Below are positions 1 to 58,000 of a DNA stretch of 64,000 nucleotides, one piece after another (position 1 is the stretch's first letter; each line of letters begins with the position of its first letter). The DNA is from Eledone cirrhosa (Eukaryota). The notes under the pieces were generated by a model. That model was not told the DNA's origin and did no database searches. It was given only the letters and a program-made list of their open reading frames with translations. Position numbers and translations under genes: made by a program. The stretch spans positions 66,836,001 to 66,900,000 of the forward strand of contig OZ024740.1 of assembly GCA_964016885.1 (NCBI GenBank), given 5' to 3'.

Positions 1-3000
1 TCTCAGATGTGGTAAATTGTTTACTTTGCACAGGTGCCAGTGGATCACCCTGCCCATCACATCATGCCTCCAGCCCTTATAGTGCGTCTGGGCTAGGTGT
101 TTACACTCGGATACAATGTGAGCCACAGTCTCCTCTCTCTCTCCACAGATCCTGCACAGTGGGCTAGCCTCCTCCTTGTAAATATGGTGTTTCAATCACT
201 TCGTTTTGAGGGCCTGCTCCTGCGCAGCCATTAACATTCCTTCTGTAGCCTTTTTGAGGTATCCTCTTCTCAACCAGTTCCATGTCTGTGGATCTCTAAA
301 TTCAGTTTTCTCAAAGAAGGTACTATGAAGGGATTTTCCCTGAAGGCTGCTCTTTCTCCTTGGTGTTATTTCCTCCTTGGACATCCCCTGGCCTACTGTC
401 CCCTCCTTCAGTACAGTTCTGAGCATTGGCTCCTTACTATCAGTCACGTATTTGTGTAGGTTGCTTTTCTCCATCTGAACACAGTCCTCTATGCTGATAA
501 GACCTCTTCCAGCCTCAGATCTCCTTAGGTAGAGTCTATCGACATCACTCCTCTTGTGGAACATGTTGTAGATAGTCAATAGCTTCCTAGTCTTCCTATC
601 CATTTCTTTTTGTTCAGCAACATTCCATCTCAGAATTCCCGCACTGTACCTAATAATAGACACAGCTCGGGAATTTACTGCACTTATGGCATTTCTGCTG
701 TTCAGATGTGACTTCAATACGCTCCTTACTCTCCGAATGTATTCAGTTCTTAACAATTCCTTCATTTTTTTGTTCTTTATGCCATCAGCCTCCAGAACGC
801 CCAAATACTTGTATCCTTCCTCAGAGTCAATTTCCTTTATCATCTCACCTGTTGGTATCTGGATTCCGTTACTTCTGCTCAACCTACCCCTCCCCATCAC
901 AATGACTCCACACTTACTAATACCAAACTGCATACATATATCACTGCTTAAAATACGGACAGTGTCAACAAGCACATCCAACTCCTTCTCACTCTTCCCG
1001 AAGAGCTTAAGATCGTCCATGAAGAGGAGGTGATTGATGGTAAGCTCTCCCTTTCCAAACTAGTATCCTGCTCTCACTTTTCGCAGCATAATGGTCAGGG
1101 GCATCAGGGCAAGGACAAACAACAGACTTCACGCTTCCCAAGGATTCTCCAGTTGATGTTAACTCTGTTTCCCAGGACCTCATACTCCTGCCCAGCAACT
1201 GTCTGATGTTATCTGCCACCTTGAAGATCTCCAGGCTTTTGGTGATCCAAGAATGAGGCACCATGTCAAATGCCTTTCTGTAGTCTATCCATCCCATGGC
1301 AAGATCAGTGTGTCTCCTCCTGCAATTCCCCATTACCATCTTATCAATAAGTAACTGGTCCTGTGTAGCACGTGACTTCTTTCGGCATCCTTTCTGTTCG
1401 TCTGGTAACAAGTTGTTTGTGTGGAGGTGATGGTAGATTTCGTCAGACACAATGCTCGTCAACAGTTTCCACATTACGGACAGACATGTGATAGGTCTAT
1501 AGTTGGTAACATCATTACCCTTGATTCGGTCTTTCATTATCAGAACTGTGGTACCTTTTGTCACCCACTCTGGTACCTCACCTGACATCAAGCAGTCATT
1601 GAACATGGTTGTCAGTTTCGGGTGGAGGGATGTTAAATTTTTAATCCAATACCCCTGCACACCATCTGGGCCTGGTGATTTCCAGTTTGTTAGTGCTTTG
1701 GCCTGCCCCTTAAGAGTTTCAACTGTGATACTCAAATCAGTTTGTTGGTGTGCCTGCTCACCGATCTCCCTCTGTACTGTCTCAATCCACCCTGCTTGGT
1801 CATTATGTCTAACATCCTGCTCCCATATTCCTCTCCAGAATGTTTTGTTTGTTCCGTCCCAGGGATCAAGTCGTTGCCTCTTTCTTTCCCCCCAAGCTGT
1901 CCAAACAGCATCTTCTGGTTGTTGTCGATATGCGGTTCTGTTTATACTGACATGACTCTGTTCTCGTATCGCCTGATTTTTGCACTCTTTGCTACAATGC
2001 GTTGCTTCAGTTCCTCTATGATAATATTTAGCTTTTTCCTCCTAGTTTTCTACTTTATTTCTAGTCTATTTTTAGTGCCTATGTTTTTTAGTGTCCCATT
2101 CAGTAGTGACTCAAGCTTTCCAATGTCATTTCTCATTTTCCTGATTTGACCACTCAGTCGTTTCTTCCACCAAGGCTCTGCTCTTTCTTGTCTGTTGTTT
2201 CCTCTCGCTTTTATACTAAGTAGTTTCCTCACCGTATTTGCTGTTGCTTTGAGGATATTGTTGCACTGGTGAAGGCTCCTCGCCTCAAGGTATGGGATGA
2301 CTTTGTTTACCTTAGCTGTTGTTTCTTTTAACTTTTCCTGTCTACAAATCTTAGGTTAATAGGTCTCCCACTATCATTGTTCAATTCATCTACCACTAAA
2401 TTTAGGATGTCAACCGAATCTTGTCCTAGCCCGTCAGCATTCATCTCCTCAGTGGCCGTATCTCTGTTCCAGGTATTATTTATCTCAGTATTCAGATCAT
2501 TGTCTGCTTCGGGTGGTTCCTCCGTTCACTCGACCTCTTCACCTTCATTTCCCACTGGCTCGTTTGCCTGGCATATTCCACCCTCCATCTCCAAGCTAAT
2601 CTCTCTGCTCAGTTCCTCCAGTTCCAGCTTGCTTATCCACCCATTAGTTCTTATTACCCGAGCCTGCCCGGCCAATTTTTGTTCATCTAATTTAAATAGA
2701 CCAATCTCGTTCCAGATGTTATGCATCCGTCTCCTATAGCCCCTCTCCTTGGGGTTACTTTTCAGGTAGCATTGCATAACAGTTCTATTCAATTCTTTCG
2801 TCCAGTTGGTTCTGGTCCCTTTCTTTCTTCTTCTTCCTCCGTCACCAGCAGTATTTGGTTCACAGCCAGGTTCCTGCTGCTGAGCCAGGGAGCACCTGTT
2901 GGGTGAGAGTCTGTCACATGTGTTCTAGTCTCCATTTCACCGTTATTCGAACTGTTAAGGTTCGATATTTAAACACTCTTATCGAGGATTGGCGAATGTA

Positions 3001-5297: not shown

Positions 5298-6113
5298 TCG
5301 GAAAACTGGGTAAAATACTCCTTCTGATGGTAAACCGTGGACAGCAACTGCTACAGAGAAACGAAATCTATAATTCCAAAAATTTTATTGACCGCTATGT
5401 ACCATTGAGCTGAACAAGCCTGATAATTCTTCTGTCCAAATATAACCTTATTTTAAAGCTGATCAAGTGTAGAGGGCACTTAGTCGTAATTTGAGTGATA
5501 CTACATACAATTTTCTGTAGTGCCTGCTGACCTCCTCCCATTTATAAGGGTATTTAACACGATTTTCTAAGTTTTTATACATAGCAATCGCCTCTGTTTA
5601 CAGTTATTTCCTGCGCTTAAGATTTTCAACATTTTCTGAGAATTTCTCGTCACTCAACTTCCGACTATTTAATTACAAATGTTGTTTTGTTCGTAGCTGG
5701 CTGCTTACTTTCTATTTAAATGGAATGTTCGTCAATGGACATTTAGCTGAACGGTACAAAGTGTTTCACCGATATTTGAGAAGTACAACATTGCGATTGA
5801 ACACATTTTCAACTGTGGAGTGTTTAGTCAATTGCTTATTAATTCCAGTAGCTGATTCTACAGCTGATCGAATATCTGGAATATACATCTTCAAATCTAA
5901 CGTAGTCATTCAATTTCACAACTTAGATTGTAAAGCTTATTAATATGTCATCTCTGAATCAATTGATTGTAATTTGCTCCTTCCTCTAAACATCTCGTAT
6001 ACCTTCTAAATCATAATTACTTGTTGCCCCTCAAACGGAATTCATAGTTGGCTGTCCAATACTTTCTCATTACTGTGTTATATTACAAGACTTAAATGAA
6101 ACGGACAGTTGCG

Positions 6114-6162
<49 letters not shown>

Positions 6163-8699
6163 TTCCATTGAAACGAATGGAACCATCATATAACACATTA
6201 ATTTTGAAATTAGAATCGAGAAGATCATCTGGGGTATATTTGTTGTATATTACCTTATCTAAGAATTGTTAAGAATTACTACTGTCAAGTAAATATATAA
6301 TTAATTTATATTTATATACGTTTGGATGTTATATATGTATTAAATCTTTGTAGTTTAGCGCAAATCGGTACATGGAAATAGATTTGTTCTTCGTTGTCTG
6401 TTTCTAGTAGACATGTGGGTTACCAAAGACGCCATTTTCAACATCGGAATGTGTGAATATTATTCGTTTCATTATGGTAATTGGCGTTATAAAAGATATC
6501 ATATATTTACAATATTGATTCCCTACTAAAACAAAATCATTTTTTAAAACATTTTTAATCGATTTATTATCAAAATGTCAGTAGATAAATTCCAATAAGC
6601 AATTTTCCTTATTGACAGATGTATTAGAAATTTCATTCCAGTTGTATCCTCATATCAATCAAAAACCGCCATATTAATTTAATATATAGTTTAATGTTGT
6701 TTTATTTTTCGTGTACGATACGTGTTTTAAATTTATCTCATTATAACCTTACGTGTCCCATGAAGTGTTTTTAAGGATTCATATTATCTGTTAAAAATTT
6801 AAAGATATATAAATATTAATTAAACCTCCAGTAATCATTCTAAAACTTCACTTACGTGGTTGAGAAATGTTACTGATAACGTCAGAGACTCTCGTAAATG
6901 TAATTGCTTTAAGGGTATAATTCATTTTGAATAATAATATTAACTTACCATATAATTTTTTCGAGACATAAGCATAGGCATAGCTGTATGGATAAGGAAT
7001 TCGCTTCGAAGCCCCGTAGATGTAGATTTAATTCCGCTGAGTTTTATATTATAACCTAGGTTCAATTAATGCTTTATGATTGAAATTAAGTAGACGGAAA
7101 ATAACGAAGCATGAATATGTATATTTGTGTGTTTATGAATATATGTGTGTTTACCTCTATATATATATGCCCATTTGTGTCTGGGTCTGCATCTACGTTT
7201 ATGTCCCGTCAATTAGTGGTTCAACAAAAATAAATCGATACAATATGACTTAATGAAAAATAATTAATGATCGGTAAAATCATGGCGGCACGCTAGCATA
7301 GGCGCAGTCTAATGAGTGAGACTAGAACAATTATAAATTATATCTACGTTGTATTTATTCGTTTAGTAGATGATATTCGTATGTTATTGTTTAGCTTTAA
7401 GCAACATAGTTTAACGTGAGTGTAATAAGAATTTGTGATATTCGTTCCTGGGAATTTTTATTGACAGAAAATTATAATGTGATCGGCTTTTCGACAACTC
7501 TGAAAATTATATTTATAAAAAAAAATATGTTGTTAAATGATAATATCAGTATATTCCTATAAATAATCTTCATCACAAACTATAATTTTGAATATTTATG
7601 ATTAAAATTTAATAAGATTTTAAATGTCTTTAATGGTTTAGTTGTGAAAGAAGTGGAAGAAAGTCTCCTTTCCACTGTAATTAAACATAGCATCCATCAC
7701 ACCAATATTATCAATAGCGTTTCAGCTGAACTTAAAAGTTTATGAAAGCAAGTTGCTTCCGTTTTCTTTCTTGTAAAGAAGCTCTAAGCAGTAATATCAG
7801 CTTGATAAATAAGACTTAATTTCACTGACATCTTTAAAAGAATATGGAGAATGGCCTACAAGAATTTAGTTTAGAATCTTTATTCTAATAGACTTGTTTT
7901 ATTATGAATTTATAAATTTCACTGAAAGATAAAAAAAAAAAAAATATCCTCATTTTAAATTAATGTTACATTCAACGCATAGTTTAATAAGAAATTGTTA
8001 TTATATATATTTTTTTTATTTCTGTATATTATATTAACATTTGTTTCCTTCAATCAAGAAAGTAAGGCTATTTCCGAATAAGAGAGAATCCAAATGACGC
8101 TAGATACTTTATTAATGCATCTATATCAATACTCATACATTCCTTAACGCCAATAAAATACTACATAATTGTAAATATATCTCATTAGCTTAAACGCAGG
8201 TAATTGTTATTTCTGCATATTCATAAACATACATGCGTGCACGTATCTCAACAAATATATGAATAGGAGGCTTGGAAGATTGATAGTGAATAATTAAATG
8301 AATAGATAGCCCTTAAAGTTACAGTTTTCCTTTTTATTTCTCTCATTTTCTTCATAATATATATTTAGATTTCTTGCTGTTCTTACAATTCTATTCTTAT
8401 TTTATAACCTGATTTAACGAGAACGAATATCTTCCAGAATGTTCAAAATTAATTTGATGGTTGCAGCCAGCTACTGGTGTGCAGTTTATATGCAATTAAA
8501 TGTATCTCACTTCCATCCAAAGTGATCGAAATCCCGCATTGTTGAATCGTGCAACTGGAAGAAAATCACGCCGAATGGAGCCGTGTACCGATTCCCGAAT
8601 CCAAAAAACCTTGGATGAATGTGGAGGAGCAAAGTATATATGAATCTCCGAGGAATATGTTTCGACAGGTTGAAGTATTATTTGGCACCGCCTGGATGG

Positions 8700-17543: not shown

Positions 17544-17626
<83 letters not shown>

Positions 17627-17639
17627 GATATATATAAAT

Positions 17640-17762
17640 GGAAAAGACTGAAACGAAATTTCATTTCTCACTCTTAGTACGGCTGATACCTAAATATAAG
17701 TATGTATACGTACATACATATATGTATACAGACGTACAGTAGTGTGTATATATATACATACA

Positions 17763-17817
<55 letters not shown>

Positions 17818-18605
17818 GTATGGGTTTACCGAACATTTATTATAATGCTCGGTTTGTTTCTAAATAAACAGCCCGAATTAAGCCGTACAGTGTTCGGCAA
17901 CCATCGTTGCCCTTTTGTTCAACACTGACAAAGGAATGATGAACTAATTGCAAGCTTATTAGCTATCGTCAGCACCGTATACCTTTCTGTCAGATGATTG
18001 AAGGTTTGAAAGTATATACTTTCCTTATGCATATTACCGGCTGAGCAGACTAATTTGCATATCGAGTGAGTTAGTCGTACTAAGAGTGCATGTATATATA
18101 TATATATATACATACTACTGTACGTATTTATACATATATGTATGTATACATATATGTATGTACTTATACATACTTATATTTAAGTATCAGCCGTACTAAG
18201 AGTGAGAAATGAAATTTCGTTTCATTCTTTTCCATGTATCGTTTTCGGTACGCCCGGCCGATTAACTCACTCGATATGCAAATTAGGCTGCTCACCCGTT
18301 AATATGCATAAGGAAAGTATATACATTCAAACGTTCAATCATCTGACAGGAATGTATATAATGCTGATGATAGCTAATAAGCTTGAAACTAGTTCATTGT
18401 TCCTTTTTCAGTGTTGAACAAAAGGGCAACGATGGTTGCCGAACACTGTACGGCTTAATTCGGGCTGTTTGTTTACAAACAAAGCGCACATTATAATAAA
18501 TGTTCGGTAAACCCATACGTATACATATATATGTGTGTACATGTATGTATATATATACATACTACTGTACGTCTGTATATATATATATGTATGTACTTAT
18601 ACATA

Positions 18606-18610
<5 letters not shown>
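17640..18610. mobile_element. family A HHR-bearing short repeat, two copies in inverted orientation
   Basis: 17640-18090 and 18100-18610 are reverse-complementary versions of the ~440 bp unit also seen at 27920-29600. Confidence 0.85.
18359..18399 (+). ncRNA. type-I hammerhead ribozyme motif (family A, core intact)
   Basis: taatg-CTGATGA-t agct aata agct t-GAAA-C TA G-TT-cattg. Stem I aatg/catt, palindromic ACTAGT stem III, GUU triplet. Confidence 0.75.
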
Positions 18611-18645
<35 letters not shown>

Positions 18646-26553: not shown

Positions 26554-26730
26554 GTGTCGGTTTTGCAATGGTGATCATCAGTTGGTTTATAACACTTTAT
26601 TATAACGTCATCATCAGTCATACCATATATTACTTTTTTGCTTCAATGAAAAGCGAAGTTCCCTGGACTTCATGTAACAATTCATGGAACTCAGACAACT
26701 GCTTTGTTTTTGATGAAAACCGCCATAACA
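26554..26730 (+). CDS. internal exon of an SLC6 sodium:neurotransmitter symporter (TM3 and start of EL2; glycine/proline transporter-like)
   Basis: Pyrimidine tract + CAG acceptor, GTAAGT donor at 26731, 177 bp, phase 1/1. Translates (G)VGFAMVIISWFITLYYNVIISHTIYYFFASMKSEVPWTSCNNSWNSDNC, with the family motifs YYN.II and PW..C...WN...C. Confidence 0.95.
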
Positions 26731-27039
26731 GTAAGTTATTTGTTATAAATAATATATTATTTATTTGAATCATTTTCGAATACGATTATAATTAATTACA
26801 GTTTTCAATTGTTGATTATAGTCCTGTTATTATATGACTTATTTCATTCATTAGACTGTTAGAGATATATTACAAATATATTCCATTCGGGAGTTTATTA
26901 GATCTAATTTATTTGGAATGTGTCTTAATTGTCCAATCGCTAATTTTGTCTGTTTTACAGAACATATAGCCAAGTACATTTAAACGATACCGGTTACAGA
27001 TGTATAAACAGAAAGAAATCATGGGTATGTTCTGACCAT

Positions 27040-27485: not shown

Positions 27486-27583
<98 letters not shown>

Positions 27584-27612
27584 GTGTAATAAACAATATA
27601 ATATAATTATTT

Positions 27613-27666
27613 CATTTACCAGTGGTTTCCTGAGAGCAAACGAATTTGCTTTCAGTCATCAGAATG
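27613..27666 (-). ncRNA. type-I hammerhead ribozyme motif (family C, core intact)
   Basis: Minus strand: catt-CTGATGA-ctgaaagcaaa TTCG tttgctctcag-GAAA-CC ACT GG-TA-aatg. UUCG-capped stem II, GUA triplet. Confidence 0.8.
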
Positions 27667-27807
27667 GAAAAAAATTCTGGTGTTTTTATTGAATGTGGAT
27701 TTGAAAAACAAAAATATAAGGAATATGAAAGTAAGGCTGGTGGAAGAAGAAGAAAAGGAGAAAAGAAAAATAAATATATAAGTATAAAAACACGAACGCA
27801 CACACAC

Positions 27808-27852
<45 letters not shown>

Positions 27853-27919
27853 CCTACACATACACACAAATACAACAAACATATATATATATATATATAC
27901 ACATACATATATATATATA

Positions 27920-29600
27920 AGTATGTATGTATACGTACGTACATATATGTATACTGACGTACAGTAGCATGTATATATATACATACAGGCACACATACAT
28001 ATATGCACGTATCAGTTTACCGAACATTTATTATAATGCTCGGTTTGTTCGTTTGTAAACAAACTAACAGCCTCAATTACGCCGTACAGTGTTTAGGCAA
28101 CCACGTCACCTTTTTGTTCAACACTGACACAGGAACCTTGTACTAGTTTCAAGCTTATTAGCTATCGTCAGCACCGTATACCTTTCTGCCAGATGGTTGA
28201 ACGTCCGAAAGTATATACTTTCCTTATGAAAATTAACGGCTGAGCAGCCTAATTTGCATATCGAGTGAGTTCAGTAGGCCAGGCGCACCGAAAACGACAA
28301 ATGGAATAGAATGAAACGAAATTTCATTTCTCACTCTTAGTACGGCATTTACTTAAATGTAAGTATGTATGTATACGTACAGTAGCATGTATATATATAC
28401 ATGGTGGCTGCCAACTCGTTTTCGAGTACGGCCACTACTTTATATCCATGTAGGAGAACCCCTACCGATGCGCTGAACGAGTGTGACTTTTTAGTCCAGC
28501 CAGCGACTTGAAAACTCTGGTACAAACACTACACTTGTGACAATTACTGACACATAGTGCTGGGCCCATGGTACCATGTGACGACAAGTGCAGAGAGATC
28601 TCCAGATATAAAGCAATGCCTGTGCCGTGAAGCTTTTATAGTGAGCAAAGGCACTGCACAAAGCCAGTCCCACTCTCTTAACCAAGATGATATTTACCAA
28701 AAAGAAGAACAAGTCAACATCATTGGATACCATCAGGGTTGCAGGTGTTATATCAGAGTTTTCCTTCTCCTAGAATTCTGCCTTGACAAAGGCTAAGGGG
28801 TCATCTCTCCCGGTGATTTTGGATGGCCATTGACTCTTAAGAGCTCCTTTGCCCTTTGACAGGTTTTGTTTTTAGTCCTGCAGGATGTCCAAAGTCACCC
28901 TCCTCACCAAGAAACCTTGGTGGGGTTGCCAGTTTAGTCGCCAACGACCCGACCATGGGACGGGTTGTACTGGGATACATGTTACCAGTAGCACCAACTG
29001 GTGACCTGACATATATATACATACAGGCACACATACATATATGCACGTATCAGTTTACCGAACATTTATTATAATGCTCGGTTTGTTCGTTTGCAAACAA
29101 ACAAACAGCTTGAATTACGCCGTACAGTGTTTAGCCAACCACGTCACTTTTTTGTCCACACTGACACAGGAACGATGTAATAGTTTCAAGCTTATTAGCT
29201 ATCGTCAGCACCGTATACCTTTCTGCCAGATGGTTGAACGTCCGAAAGTATATACATTCCTTATGAAAATTAACGGCTGAGCAGCCTAATTTGCATATCG
29301 AGTGAGTTCAGTATGCCAGGCGCACCGAAAACGATAAATGGAATAGAATGAAACGAAATTTCATTTCTCACTCTTAGTACGGCACTTACTTAAATGTAAG
29401 TATGTATGTATACGTACATACATATATGTATACAGACGTACAGTAGCATGTATATATATACATACAGGCAGACATACATATATGCACGTATCAGTTTACC
29501 GAACATTTATTATAATGCTCGGTTTGTTCGTTTGTAAACAAACAAAAGTAAGTGCCGTTCTAAGAGTGAGAAATGAAATTTCGTTTCATTCTATTCCATA
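27920..29600 (-). mobile_element. head-to-tail family A array (441 bp period, about 2.3 units) with an HHR per unit, ending in a short inverted piece
   Basis: ATGCACGTATCAGTTTACCGAAC recurs at ~28003, 29041 and 29482. HHR cores CTGACGA..GAAAC lie on the minus strand at ~28139-28176 and 29172-29214. Inverted terminus at 29546-29598. Confidence 0.85.
28403..29010 (-). mobile_element. family H 608 bp non-coding retroposon with 12 bp target-site duplication
   Basis: ATATATATACAT flanks both sides (28391-28402 and 29011-29022). Partial opposite-orientation copies at 53145-53533 and ~58160-58370. Strand is inferred from the shared end. Confidence 0.8.
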
Positions 29601-29807
29601 TATATATATATTTATATATATATATCGGCCTGCCCGACCAGCCAGAGGGATGGCGTTATCTTATTGCCAAAACAGCACGACATGCAGTGACCAGCGGCGA
29701 CGACTGGCGCCCGACAGACTGGTCGGTCAAGGTGGTAAAGGCGATACATATATATATACACACACCCACATACATACACACATATACACACATACATACA
29801 CACACAG

Positions 29808-29854
<47 letters not shown>

Positions 29855-30041
29855 TATAATTATAAGAATAACAAAATCAATAAACAAAATACATTTACAT
29901 GAAATCAAAGTAAAGTCAAATATAAAAAATAAAAAATGAGGGAATAAAAAAATATTAAGTTGACAGCGATGCGAAAGAAGGGGAAAGGCACAAATAAAAA
30001 TAAATAATCAAACACACCGTTAAGCAAATGTACAAAATAAA

Positions 30042-30148
<107 letters not shown>

Positions 30149-30503
30149 AGTGGTTAAACAACAGTTAGTTCACCATACCGAGAACAATTATATGTGTGTG
30201 TATATATATATGTGTGTATGTATGTATGTATGTATGTATATATGTATGTATGTATGTATGTATGCATACATGTATGTATTCATGTGTGCGTGTATATGTA
30301 TTTGTATGTATACACTTATTGTGTATATGTTTGTACTGTTTATATTTGTTGTGTGTGTATTTTTCAATGTGTGTGAATGTGTATGTATGTGTACATATGC
30401 ATGTGTATGTGTATGCTAGTATATATATATATGTACATATGTATATATGTTATGGAATACTGTTAACTTATCGCTAAAACAATTTCTATACCTTTCATTT
30501 ATT

Positions 30504-31720
30504 GCTCTAGACCTAGCTATTGACCAGTTAATTTTATTGTTCATTTTCTGTCGATTCTATTAAATGATGAATAGCTCCTGTGTATTTTAACATGTCTATT
30601 GAGCACTCTTATTCGATATGTGTAATTCCACATTTTCCCGAATATTTTTCGCGGATATAGAGGTTATCTCCCTTGCTGAATTCCATGTGCGTATTTAACC
30701 TGGGTTATGCCTTTTCATTCGTTTGGACAAAGCTCGTTGAGGAAGTAAATTTCGCGTCCGCTGGCAACTAGAAGTCTTATATATTTTTATGTGAGCTGAT
30801 AGAGGACAGTTTAAGGATTTACAGAAACCCAAGAAGCTAGATTTACCATCTTTCTAGCGGGTCCGGGTATGCTTTTTACATTCATTTTATTTATTGATTT
30901 ATTGATTTTTTATCTGAGTGTCCCGAATCATCCAGATCGCAATTTTTCGGTCGTATGGTTGATTATAGACTTGTTCTATGTGTGATGGTATTTTAACGAT
31001 AGTTATAGCTCTGATTTATCTAAATTATTGAGCCCTCTGTCGCTCATATCGAATTTTGTTTATCGTGAACTCGTGCGCCGATTTTTCGATACTCGATTAT
31101 TCTACTATATTTAGCTCTAGACCTAGCCATTGACCAGTTAATTTTATTGTTCATTTTTTGTCGATTCTATTAAATGATGAATAGCTCATGTTTATTTTAA
31201 CATGTCTATTGAGCACTCTAATTCGATATGTGTATTTCCACATTTTCCCGAATATTTTTCGCGGATATAGAGGTTATCTCCCTTGCTGAATTCCATGTGC
31301 GTATTTAACCTGGGTTATGCCTTTTCATTCGTTTGGACAAAGCTCGTGGAGGAAGTAAATTTCCCGTCCGCTGGCATCTAGAAGTCTTATATATTTTTAT
31401 GTGAGCTGATAGAGGACAGTTTAAGGATTTACAGAAACCCAAGAAGTTAGATTTACCATCTTTCTAGCGGGTCCGGGTATGCTTTTTACATTCATTTGAT
31501 TTATTGATTTATTGATTTTTTATCTGAGCGTCCCGAATCTTCCAGATCGCAATTTTTCGGTCGTATGGTTGATTATAGACTTGTTCTATGTGTGACGGTA
31601 TTTTAACGATAGTTATAGCTCTGATTTATCTAAATTATTGAGCCCTCTGCCGCTCATATCGAATTTTGTTTATCGTGAACTCGTGCGCCGATTTTTCGAT
31701 ACTCGATTATTCTACTATAT
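30504..31720. repeat. tandem dimer of a 610 bp unit
   Basis: GCTCTAGACCTAG starts at 30504 and 31114. Both units end ...GATTATTCTACTATAT with few substitutions. Confidence 0.95.
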
Positions 31721-31929: not shown

Positions 31930-36600
<4,671 letters not shown>

Positions 36601-50106: not shown

Positions 50107-50224
<118 letters not shown>

Positions 50225-50395
50225 AAATAACGAAACGAAATTAAATTTCGTTTCGTTATTTCTTTTTATCGTCTCCGCTGAACCGGTACGTACTCACGCT
50301 CTATGCAAGTTAGTCTGCCCACTACTAATTTTCATAGAAAAAGCATATAACGATATGTGCTTTTACGATTCTCCAGAGAGGCCGGAAGATAGGTA

Positions 50396-50440
50396 AATAT
50401 TGCTGATTAGTTGTAACAACAACGAAACTAGTTCAATATT
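50396..50440 (+). ncRNA. hammerhead motif in a diverged family A relative (G8 mutated)
   Basis: aatattg-CTGATTA-gttgt aaca acaac-GAAA-C TA G-TT-caatatt. Confidence 0.65.
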
Positions 50441-50658
50441 CCTTGTCTGGCTTTCTGGAGAATAGAGGAAAGGTGTTTCCTCAAAAACCAGTATGACTCT
50501 AAAAACCGGTTTGTCTGTGTGTTTACATACAGAATAGCTGGACACTCACAGTAAAGTGACCAGAGAAAAACTTGGTACATTTACATATGTATACGTGTGT
50601 GTATTCATATGCATACTAGTATTTCAGTATACATATGTGGATGTACATTTTTAACTTA

Positions 50659-53138: not shown

Positions 53139-53144
53139 AGTAGA

Positions 53145-53530
53145 TGACCCCTTAGCCTTTGTCAAGGCAGAATTCTAGGAGAAGGAAAACTCTGATATAA
53201 CACCTGCAACCCTGATGGTATCCAGTTCTTCTTTTTGGTAAATACCGTCCTGGTTAAGAGAGTGGGACTGGCTTTGTGCAGTGCCTTTGTTCACTATAAA
53301 AGCTTCACGGCACAGGCATTGCTTTATATCTGGAGATCTCTCTGCATTTGGCGTCACATGGTACCATGGGCCAAGCACTATGTGTCAATAATTGTCACAA
53401 GTGTAGTGTTTGTACCAGAGTTTTCAAGTCGCTGGCTGGACTGAAAATTCACACTCGTTCAGCGCATCGGTAGGGGTTCTCCTACATGGATATAAAGTAG
53501 TGGCCGTACTCGAAAACGAGTTGGCAACCA

Positions 53531-53533
<3 letters not shown>
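53145..53533 (+). mobile_element. truncated family H copy between TA tracts
   Basis: Reverse complement of ~28403-28805. Confidence 0.85.
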
Positions 53534-53623
<90 letters not shown>

Positions 53624-55840: not shown

Positions 55841-55887
55841 ATGTGTGTAAAATAAAATGTGGAGAGGAGGCACACGAGTTAGGATAT

Positions 55888-57996
55888 ATATATATATATG
55901 AAAACAAGGAGAAATAGACTATTGTGAGGAAGAAAAATATATTGTTTTCCTTTTTTGTTTCTCTCTCTCTTTTTTCTGGGTTAGAAAATGATTAAAACGA
56001 AATGTTTTATTTTGTGTGAAGTGTTAAGGTATTAGTTAATTTATTTATTATTTAACAATGGCATTTATTTATCTATTTATATATATAATTATTGTCTATT
56101 ACCGGTTTCAGCATTTATATGCATTATCAAATGATAGTGAAATGTATTAGTGTGGTGTCGCACATGTTAAACAGAAGGTGCAGAAAGAATAATGTTATAT
56201 ACAAACAAGGTTTAAGAAGTGAAAAGAAAAGAGAAAAAGGAAAAAAAGAAAAACAAAAACGTGCATAATGTTTCTAACGTAAAAAGTAAATGTGGAAGAA
56301 AACATAATGTTATTTACAAGCACAGTCATTGAAGTTAAGAAGTTCAAAATGTGTTAATATCGCAAGAGTGCTTAGTTGAACCATGGTTCCGTGAAGGAGG
56401 CAAATGGTGGACTGTGGTTTGATATGATTTCCCTTTTTAGAGAGTTAATATGCAGGGGAAACAATTCTTGCTGGGTGATATTTAATTTATTTAGAGAAAA
56501 AGGATTAGGTAGGGTGTGAGGGAAGTAACACTTGTAAATGTTTGATGGTTTGTTGCAGTTTTAGATTGGTCCAATATTAGGGCATTGAGTAGTGGTTGAA
56601 ATTTATTAATGAAATGTGTTTCCTTATTGGTTCGTTGGATGAAAGTAGCGTTGTCTCTGAATCTGTAAATGGGGAACATTTTAAAGTTTGGATGTTGGTT
56701 GAGGGCACAATCAGTGATATGTTCACTACATGCAATCTTTCTGTATTCCTGTATTTTAATTTATGATTTATGGACGGTCATACGTTGACGGAGGCTGTTT
56801 TTGTTTGTCCTATGTAGTGCTCTTGACAACCTGAGCAGGTCATACGTCCAAACACACAACATCATAAAGAGCAAAAGACAACCTAAATCCATACAAAACA
56901 TCCTCACACAAGCCAAAATCCAACAAACCCTCACAATTACCCCTATAGTAACAAAATGCGGAAGGCCCAACAGTGCCATATGCATAAATCTCATAGGAGG
57001 TTCAACATTCCATTTTAAATAGGGACAATCTTTAACAGTTAAATGCAACTTTACATGTGCATTTGAAAACCGTATCTATGTTTTGACCTGCTCAGGTTGT
57101 CAAGGGCATTACATAGGACAAACAAAAAACAGCCTCTGTCAACGTATGACCGTCCATAAATCACAAATTAAAATACAGGAATACAGAAAGATTGCATTTA
57201 GTGAACATATCGCCAATTGTGCTCTCAACCAACATCCAAACTTTAAAATTTCCCCCATTTACAAATTCATAGACAACGCTACTTTCCTCCAACGTACCAA
57301 TAAGGAAACACATTTCATTAATAAATTTCAACCACCAATCAATGCCCTAAAAATCGGACCAATCTAAAATTGCAACAAACCATTAAACATTTACAAGATT
57401 TACCTCCCTCACACCCTACCTATTCCTTTTTCTTAAATAAATTAAATATCACGCAGCAAAATTGCTTCACCCTGACTATTAACTCTCTAAAAAGGGAAAT
57501 CATATCAAACCAGTCAACCATTTGCCTCCTTCACGGAACCATGGTTCAACTAAGCACTCTTGCGTTATTAACACATTTTGAACTTTGTAACTTCAATGAC
57601 TGTGCTTGTAAATAACATTATTTTTTCTTCCACATTGACTTTTTACGTTCCACATTATGCACCGTTTTGTTTTTCTTTTTTTTCCTTTTTCTTTTTTCTT
57701 TTCACTTATTAAACCTTGTTTGTATATAACATTATTCTTTCTGCACCATCTGTTTAACATTTCACTATCATTTGATAATGCATATAAATGCTGAAACCGG
57801 TAATAGACAATAATTAAATATATAAATAGATAAATAAATGACATTGTTAAATAATAAATAAATCAACTAATAACTTAACACTCCACACAAAGTAAAAAAT
57901 TTCGTTTTAATCATTTTCTAACCCAGGAAAAAGAGAGAGAAACAAAAGAGGAAAAACATATATATTTTTTCCTCATAATCGTCTCTTTCTCCCTGT

Positions 57997-58000
<4 letters not shown>
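55888..58000. mobile_element. Neptune-like PLE 3' end (GIY-YIG + pLTR) as an inverted pair with ~930 bp arms
   Basis: Plus strand 56843-57367 reads KSKRQPKSIQNIL..KCGRPN..IYVLTCSGCQGHYIGQT.NSL.QRMTVH. 55888-56842 is the reverse complement of 57084-58000. Confidence 0.88.
57765..57806 (+). ncRNA. hammerhead motif, U3-A8 variant, in the PLE pLTR (mirror copy at ~56096-56137)
   Basis: TTGATAA-t gcat ataa atgc t-GAAA-C CG G-TA-atag. Confidence 0.6.

What the first reader, a model, noticed from the sequence alone, without database searches (positions are those of the whole stretch)
27920..29600. Head-to-tail 441 bp HHR monomers: retrozyme-like array that could yield circular RNA
About 2.3 tandem units carry one hammerhead core each, have no coding capacity and end in a short inverted piece. 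Established: non-LTR retrozymes are tandem few-hundred-nt HHR repeats processed to monomeric circles, and terminal inversions are typical of PLE insertion. Inference: the array was copied from a circular or multimeric RNA by a PLE RT. Both local HHR copies have stem defects.
Basis: partly seen in the sequence, partly recalled or inferred. Interest (0 to 1): 0.75.

Follow-up and report, generated by a model that had tools for sequence, protein, structure and literature searches.

The report
Penelope-type hammerhead repeat, interrupted copy
This is one damaged copy, split by a second mobile element, of a 441-base ribozyme-motif repeat found thousands of times in this animal genome; its ends indicate it was likely pasted in by a Penelope-type jumping-gene enzyme, a known kind of genomic parasite, and whether it makes circular RNA is untested.

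Summary
The repeat is real: about 2.3 units of 441 bp, two minus-strand hammerhead (HHR) motifs with one defect each, and a 58-bp inverted end. The two cut sites are therefore 1,037 nt apart, and this locus cannot release a 441-nt RNA.

The family is large: 3,352 exact intact HHR motifs, and 14,082 matches to an adjacent 27-mer. Copies are not circularly permuted. Of 226 arms, 201 end at one of two fixed sites 57 nt apart, mostly at (TA)n, and 61 of 63 inverted insertions carry one end of each kind. This is the Penelope-like (PLE) 'tail' signature. The window's inverted piece is exactly that tail.

Arms run through the HHR cut site without stalling (2 stops in 113 arrivals) and reach 9 units, so the template was longer than one cleaved monomer. 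An uncut multimer and a circle both fit; no RNA data were available. Intact Hydra- and Neptune-type PLEs exist in the genome, but no partner was identified.

Verdict: a new family of a known kind (non-LTR retrozyme / non-autonomous PLE); the circle is unproven.

The parts
27912..29603 (-). Whole insertion of the HHR repeat family (direct arm plus inverted tail), including a later 608-bp insert
   Evidence: self-BLAST; arm mapping
27912..27972 (-). Last 55-61 nt of the direct arm, ending at fixed site A against (TA)n
27973..28402 (-). Unit copy A (about 24 bp missing in its TA-rich part)
28136..28176 (-). Type I HHR motif, copy A; stem I 3' strand has two mismatches; predicted cut after 28141
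28391..28402 (.). Left copy of the 12-bp target duplication of the secondary insert (right copy 29011-29022)
28403..29010 (.). 608-bp fixed-length repeat of another family, inserted in the unit's internal TA-rich tract; not part of the HHR unit
   Evidence: partial copy at 53142-53548
29011..29451 (-). Unit copy B, 441 bp (reference monomer; q1 = 29451)
29173..29213 (-). Type I HHR motif, copy B; G-to-U change breaks stem III and its palindrome; predicted cut after 29178
29334..29391 (-). Read-through copy of the 57-nt tail (q62-118) between sites A and B, holding a predicted hairpin
29452..29546 (-). 5'-truncated partial unit (q347-441), no HHR
29546..29603 (+). Inverted arm = exactly the tail (q61-118), ending at fixed site B against (TA)n
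27570..27911 (.). Left half of the older repeat (with its own HHR motif at 27662) into whose TA run the array inserted; right half is 29604-30050
   Evidence: both halves are contiguous in the copy at 35745-36565; HHR
26556..26732 (+). Upstream exon of an SLC6 (sodium:neurotransmitter symporter) gene; the HHR strand is antisense to it
   Evidence: PF00209, E 2.7e-17; that the array lies in an intron is inferred

Best explanation
This is a mutated, secondarily interrupted copy of an abundant non-coding 441-bp hammerhead-motif repeat that was likely inserted by a Penelope-like (PLE) reverse transcriptase-endonuclease acting in trans on an RNA longer than one unit. Shown: dispersed high copy number, two fixed 3' ends 57 nt apart next to (TA)n, variable 5' ends, inverted insertions with one end of each kind, and arms that pass the HHR cut site. 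Inferred: the endonuclease cuts both strands of a TA run; one DNA end primes at site B (3' of the tail hairpin), the other at site A (5' of it); both cDNAs run upstream, stop at variable places and are joined head to head. In this window the B-primed cDNA covers only the tail. The HHR has a 2-bp stem III with a palindromic ACUAGU loop region, so it is predicted to cut only as a double hammerhead, that is in multi-unit RNA. I take an uncut multi-unit transcript as the usual template (about 0.5) over a ligated circle (about 0.3) or end-to-end template jumps (about 0.1). This locus is predicted to be inactive.
For: Copy number: 3,352 exact 36-nt HHR matches, control 0; 14,082 exact 27-mers, control 0. 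Ends: 201 of 226 arms end in windows covering 11% of the unit; 176 of those 201 have a (TA)4+ run at the end, against 25 of 167 5' ends. Of 77 inverted pairs, 63 had both ends at A or B, and 61 of these are A+B, p 2e-16. Cut site: 2 stops in 113 arrivals against 1.7% background. Length: 47 of 77 arms exceed one unit; the longest has 9 HHRs. HHR pairing over about 230 units: the stem I pair 241-277 occurs as G-U 170, A-U 48, U-G 4 (222 of 229 paired), and the only core position with a common variant is N7. The double-hammerhead fold is 6 kcal/mol below two single folds lacking stem III. One copy in a non-TA target has a 9-bp duplication (L245). Intact PLE ORFs with Hydra-type and Neptune-type linkers exist in this genome. 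Literature: two internal start sites define the tail, both strands are cut and extended, and HHR cleavage is not needed in vitro (PMC11167929).
Against: No autonomous PLE with a matching terminal repeat was found among 90 PLE loci compared (30, 60; the few hits looked like separate neighbouring insertions). Fourteen of 77 inverted pairs had an end outside A/B and two were B+B. The preference for an uncut multimer over a circle is weak: A arms never stop at the upstream B site (0 of 30) while B arms stop at A in 5 of 61, Fisher p 0.17. Twenty-nine variants are shared by all units of an insertion, in 67 insertions, and young arrays are nearly homogeneous, as a monomer circle would give. In 55 of 61 pairs the B arm runs past site A, which needs strand displacement or two RNA molecules. 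The double-hammerhead fold (-17.8) is far above the cofold minimum (-42.8), and stem I has probability about 0.16 in a natural dimer. Samples were picked by similarity or exact motifs, which inflates apparent HHR conservation.
Confidence: 0.78

Rival explanations
1. Circle-templated retrozyme: multi-unit transcripts self-cleave as double hammerheads, monomers are ligated into ~441-500 nt circles, and the PLE enzyme primes internally on the circle and reads round it.
For: Arrays up to 9 units and no stall at the cut; young arrays are homogeneous, e.g. L165 two identical units 2% from the nearest sampled outside unit, L179 0.2% within; 29 all-unit shared variants; HHR core and stems kept across subfamilies; a natural cut-to-cut monomer folds well as a circle, z -5.3. 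Circles are shown for other animal retrozymes (PMC7229834) and proposed for PLEs (PMC4209133).
Against: No clear scar at the ligation nucleotide: 9 of 235 units differ at H17, rank 10 of 103 A columns, and GUU is a standing variant in related copies. Some arrays grew at DNA level (L021 and L141 repeat a two-unit block). Only 1 of 9 Xenopus dimers cleaved in vitro (bioRxiv 10.64898/2026.07.22.740005). No reads at the HHR cut in the anole PLE (PMC11167929).
Confidence: 0.3
2. The units are 5'-truncated ends or pseudo-LTR debris of an autonomous PLE, with tandems made by stutter at insertion, not an independent family.
For: The anatomy equals that of PLE ends; a Neptune-type PLE here has a minimal HHR in its 3' UTR and two TA-bounded ends (L227/L233). 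Two of 63 unpaired 5' flanks join a Hydra-type ORF in line (L149, L099).
Against: Upstream of a unit lies another unit, an inverted arm, TA or unrelated DNA. The 63 unpaired flanks share no common body and break at scattered positions. The two in-line ORFs belong to different families and are cut inside the endonuclease domain.
Confidence: 0.08
3. DNA-level satellite: units spread and expand by unequal crossing-over or DNA transposition; the HHR is incidental.
For: L021 units 4 and 2 are identical at all 15 variable sites, and L141 alternates likewise.
Against: Most insertions are 0.5-2 units, dispersed, with fixed 3' ends, variable 5' ends and A+B coupling; there are no terminal inverted repeats of fixed length.
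Confidence: 0.04

Closest known systems
Metazoan non-LTR retrozymes (Cervera and de la Pena 2020, PMC7229834; Li, Clavereau and Pollet, bioRxiv 10.64898/2026.07.22.740005)
   Same: Non-coding few-hundred-bp unit, 38% GC, one type I HHR per unit, dimers to multimers, PLEs in the same genome. A U-U pair at the base of stem II and a weak palindromic helix III recall the axolotl motifs.
   Different: Most insertions hold one HHR; ends, inversions and tail are those of PLE insertions; the HHR is of the weak, dimer-dependent PLE type rather than the efficient invertebrate type; no RNA or circle shown; no sequence link to an autonomous PLE found.
EN+ Penelope-like element insertion units (PMC11167929; PMC8557442; PMC3846280; PMC4209133)
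   Same: Variable 5' truncation, partial tandems, head-to-head inverted copy, tail on one end, two internal start sites, (TA)n target, minimal HHR with palindromic helix III.
   Different: No ORF; the whole body is one repeated unit; the tail is 57 nt rather than 30-40; the one-A-one-B rule is counted here (61 of 63), while the papers state it only as a tail often or optionally on one end.
Non-autonomous Chlamys PLEs such as MRC1 (PMC8557442)
   Same: Non-coding elements making multicopy head-to-tail insertions by PLE machinery.
   Different: Those mostly lack canonical HHRs and resemble their autonomous partner at the 3' end; here an HHR is present and no partner match was found.

Membership tests
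Non-LTR retrozyme | Short non-coding unit (about 150-450 bp, up to ~970), low GC | tested here: met
   441 bp, GC 0.376, longest Met ORF 38/79 aa; sister subfamily about 460-550 bp
Non-LTR retrozyme | One type I HHR motif per unit | tested here: met
   descriptor and pairing; not detected by Rfam
Non-LTR retrozyme | [quoted passage not shown] | tested here: met
   L092 has three intact HHRs 442 nt apart; 18 of 77 and 1 of 36 arms span two or more HHR positions
Non-LTR retrozyme | [quoted passage not shown] | tested here: not met
   both motifs defective and 1,037 nt apart; a decayed member, not an active one
Non-LTR retrozyme | Self-cleavage of the RNA | not testable with these tools
   folding only
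Non-LTR retrozyme | Expression as linear monomer and circular RNA | not testable with these tools
   no RNA holder listed
EN+ PLE-type insertion (non-autonomous) | Two fixed 3' start sites defining a tail, present on one end | tested here: met
   201 of 226 ends; 61 of 63 pairs A+B
EN+ PLE-type insertion (non-autonomous) | Variable 5' truncation with tandem and head-to-head inverted copies | tested here: met
EN+ PLE-type insertion (non-autonomous) | AT-rich or (TA)n target | tested here: met
   176 of 201 A/B ends
EN+ PLE-type insertion (non-autonomous) | Terminal similarity to an autonomous PLE of the same genome | tested here: inconclusive
   none among 90 PLE loci; only top-scoring PLE families were sampled
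Autonomous PLE | RT plus GIY-YIG ORF | tested here: not met
   no ORF in the unit or in a shared upstream body

The most novel reading that the evidence does not exclude
The family propagates as a small circle closed at the double-hammerhead cut, and a Hydra-type PLE dimer primes the two target strands at two different fixed sites (A and B), at times on two different RNA molecules. Loci L149 and L099, where a unit arm runs in line into a Hydra-type ORF, would then be template-switch chimeras that name the mobilising enzyme. With tens of thousands of copies, this would be a genomic record of how PLE tails and inversions arise and of circle-templated retrotransposition.
Probability: 0.2. Interest if true: 0.65.

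Novelty: new member of a known kind. Interest (0 to 1): 0.36.

Why it matters
The locus itself is a dead copy. The family is useful as a large natural data set on PLE integration: the near-strict pairing of one A end with one B end links the two in vitro start sites of PLE reverse transcription to the two target strands, and it explains head-to-head inversions without an antisense template. It also ties a retrozyme-like repeat to PLE machinery by its ends rather than by co-occurrence. If circles were shown, it would be a tractable system for the open question whether retrozyme circles are real transposition intermediates.

Tried and rejected
RNA evidence: no RNA holder listed; this is no evidence either way. 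Three contig runs were laid on an intact unit: two runs of one sample gave 7,758 and 8,088 contigs, the third none; contigs cannot show ends, strand or circles.

Rfam: no HHR hit at the finding.

A 63-base DNA search of the tail found nothing because common words are skipped.

Circular permutation: rejected. Pile-up of 5' ends at the HHR cut: rejected (2 of 113; 3 of 241 over all arms).

Ligation scar at H17: 9 of 235 against 1.5% background, uncorrected p 0.012, rank 55 of 349 columns. The A-to-T change at that place is 2-3% in the contig runs, but GUU is a standing variant in related copies, so it was not accepted.

Primer collision: B arms stopping at site A in 5 of 61 (p 0.057; 6 of 62 with the window, p 0.019), A arms at the upstream B site 0 of 30; not significant.

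A basal stem joining sites A and B appeared in 87 of 137 short folds but had probability 0 in a 320-nt context; rejected.

L021 and L141 alternating units were read as DNA-level duplication, not dimer circles, because the outer units do not match.

L038/L245 looked chimeric but is an insertion into a PLE copy with a 9-bp duplication. L109 has its own B arm.

One search folded a wrongly chosen stretch that included flank; it was not used. In one search the L141 stretch missed the tail; not used. The TA count (112 of 201) was made on TA-collapsed sequence and is replaced. The protein atlas could not be used.

Full report
Coordinates. q numbers count along the reference monomer, the minus strand of window 29011-29451 (q1 = 29451). 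The HHR lies at q239-279 with the predicted cut after q274. An 'arm' is one uninterrupted run of unit sequence on one strand.

1. Observation. Self-BLAST gives unit sequence at 27912-28397 and 29011-29546 and an inverted piece at 29546-29603. The 441-bp period holds between 29051 and 29492. Between the first two units lies a 608-bp element (28403-29010) with a 12-bp duplication, a member of a separate family (40 of 286 candidates scored, all near full length at 97-100%). Without it the direct arm is 1,015 bp, 2.30 units. A type I HHR descriptor finds cores at 29208 and 28171 on the minus strand, each with one defect; shuffles give an intact hit in 1 of 5,000 monomers. Rfam sees neither. The cut sites are 1,037 nt apart. 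The array sits in the TA run of an older repeat whose two halves are contiguous elsewhere in the window, downstream of an SLC6 exon on the opposite strand.

2. The family. The genome (3.0 Gb) has 3,352 exact matches to the intact 36-nt HHR and 14,082 to the 27-mer next to it; both controls are 0. I mapped arms in 150 fetched loci merged to 126 stretches. They came from the best hits (30 loci, plus 9 further best hits and an extension of L021), from position-ordered hits (30 loci, plus 10 regions, nine of them picked for tandem or inverted spacing), and from the first 100 hits (30 loci plus 40 regions). Arms at stretch edges and one segmental duplicate (L026) were dropped, leaving 226; arms under 28 nt or wholly in the TA-rich part are not mapped.

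3. Ends. 96 arms end at site A (q40-69, mode 61), 105 at site B (q102-121, mode 118), 25 elsewhere; uniform ends would put 11% in these windows. 176 of the 201 have a (TA)4+ run at the end, against 25 of 167 5' ends. 5' ends are spread over the whole unit. Of 77 head-to-head pairs, 61 are A+B, 2 B+B, none A+A, and 14 have an end elsewhere. The window insertion is a further A+B case, with a B arm that is exactly the 57-nt tail. Copies are thus not circularly permuted.

4. Template. In the sample 47 of 77 arms exceed one unit and 18 of 77 span two or more HHRs, up to nine; in the sample only 1 of 36 does. Arms reaching the cut site stop there 2 times in 113, equal to background. A cleaved linear monomer is therefore not the template unless jumps are exact. 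Tests between multimer and circle did not decide. There is no firm scar at H17. Primer-collision counts lean weakly against a monomer circle. Of variants absent from the 15 nearest outside units, 501 are private to one unit, 34 shared by some, and 29 shared by all units of an insertion, in 67 insertions, which fits a circle or homogeneous source arrays. L021 and L141 show DNA-level duplication of a two-unit block.

5. Ribozyme. Across about 230 units N7 is the only core position with a common variant (C 162, T 70), stem I tolerates G-U, A-U and U-G at one pair, and stems II and III are 97-100% paired; ascertainment by motif inflates this. Stem III is two pairs around two bases within a palindrome, the build described for dimer-dependent PLE and amphibian HHRs (PMC4209133; PMC7229834). 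The double fold is 6 kcal/mol better than two singles but is not the minimum-energy fold. Activity is untested.

6. Partner. The genome holds intact PLE ORFs: 778-781 aa with the CxCX5C linker given for Hydra (motif from PMC8557442 section 11) and 636-1096 aa with RVT_1, in some also GIY-YIG, and a CX4CxxC linker of Neptune type. Clades are assigned by motif only. None of 90 PLE loci has a terminal repeat like the unit. Of 63 unpaired 5' flanks, four hold PLE ORF sequence. Two are explained otherwise. Two join a Hydra-type ORF in line; with PLE DNA this abundant, two is not clearly above chance (my estimate, not computed).

7. Mechanism. Shown: anatomy, counts, end rule. From the literature: an anole PLE protein cuts and extends both strands of AT-rich DNA, starts internally at two sites whose interval is the tail, is predicted to be a dimer, and does not need HHR cleavage (PMC11167929). 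Inferred: the same here, with the two strands using different sites. Not shown: transcription, cleavage, circles, the partner.

8. Known and new. The element fits non-LTR retrozymes by anatomy at family level and PLE-type insertions by all three end features tested; this locus fails the 'two intact consecutive HHRs' test. PLE origin of animal retrozymes is argued in bioRxiv 10.64898/2026.07.22.740005, and a tail on one end is stated in PMC8557442 and PMC3846280. Six searches turned up no description of this family or a count of the A+B rule; they cover only the held library. That the genome is a cephalopod's is a recalled impression, not tested. Two unreviewed notes of this scan report the same kind of element; they are leads, not support.

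9. What I read. PMC11167929: parts 1-2 of 4 (abstract, main text, start of methods). bioRxiv 10.64898/2026.07.22.740005: parts 1-3 of 5 (through Discussion); supplements closed. PMC4209133: parts 1-2 of 4, and a term search of the supplementary files held as text (one file not searched). PMC7229834: passages and Discussion; its supplement, which may list species, could not be read. PMC8557442: passages and section 11. PMC3846280 and PMC13282606: passages only. Other papers: search listings only.

10. Verdict. Real feature, partly misdescribed; new family of a known kind; circle unproven. Interest 0.36.

Noticed in passing
window 17612-18628: An older copy of the same family (about 82-84% identity) in a complex inverted arrangement, with an intact descriptor hit at 18364 (GUU triplet).
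   Followed up: partly
window 50222-50460: A more distant relative (68-73%) with the same layout: strong hairpin at the TA-bounded end (z -5.9) and an HHR-like motif, Rfam HH9 34 bits, below cut-off.
   Followed up: partly
window 23872, 27662, 38794, 41691/41823, 55521/55654: Four further HHR-motif repeat families in this one window, several as inverted pairs. The genome seems rich in such PLE-type non-coding elements.
   Followed up: no
window 31935-34495 (ORF 32950-34224, minus): 5'-truncated PLE with Hydra-type motifs. Intact 778-784 aa tandem copies exist elsewhere (L221, L222), including many with equal scores, suggesting a young family.
   Followed up: partly
window 55850-58000: Inverted PLE fragment with a GIY-YIG domain (PF01541) and Neptune-type linker; 12,243 first-look candidates in the genome.
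   Followed up: partly
window 28403-29010: 608-bp fixed-length young repeat (97-99% between copies) that sits within 25 bp of a unit arm end in 7 of 126 fetched stretches; class not determined.
   Followed up: partly
window 30497-31720: Another tandem of two ~612-bp units, 97% alike, between TA runs; no HHR descriptor hit there.
   Followed up: no
L246 (L149) 1016-2343 and L247 (L099) 5373-7737: Unit arms with an A end that run in line into the endonuclease region of Hydra-type ORFs of two different families, with another element's end as the opposite arm; template-switch chimeras or later insertion with deletion.
   Followed up: partly
L245 3300-6360: A two-unit array inserted antisense in a PLE ORF with a 9-bp duplication; the inverted arm of that PLE carries part of the array, so it appears to have been copied again as a passenger.
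   Followed up: partly
L227 2100-2722, L228, L233: Neptune-type PLE with a minimal palindromic HHR in its 3' UTR and two TA-bounded ends about 50 nt apart: same anatomy as the repeat, no clear sequence similarity.
   Followed up: partly
window 196-2924: Frameshifted non-LTR reverse transcriptase ORFs on the minus strand; RTE-like by recalled motifs, not tested.
   Followed up: no
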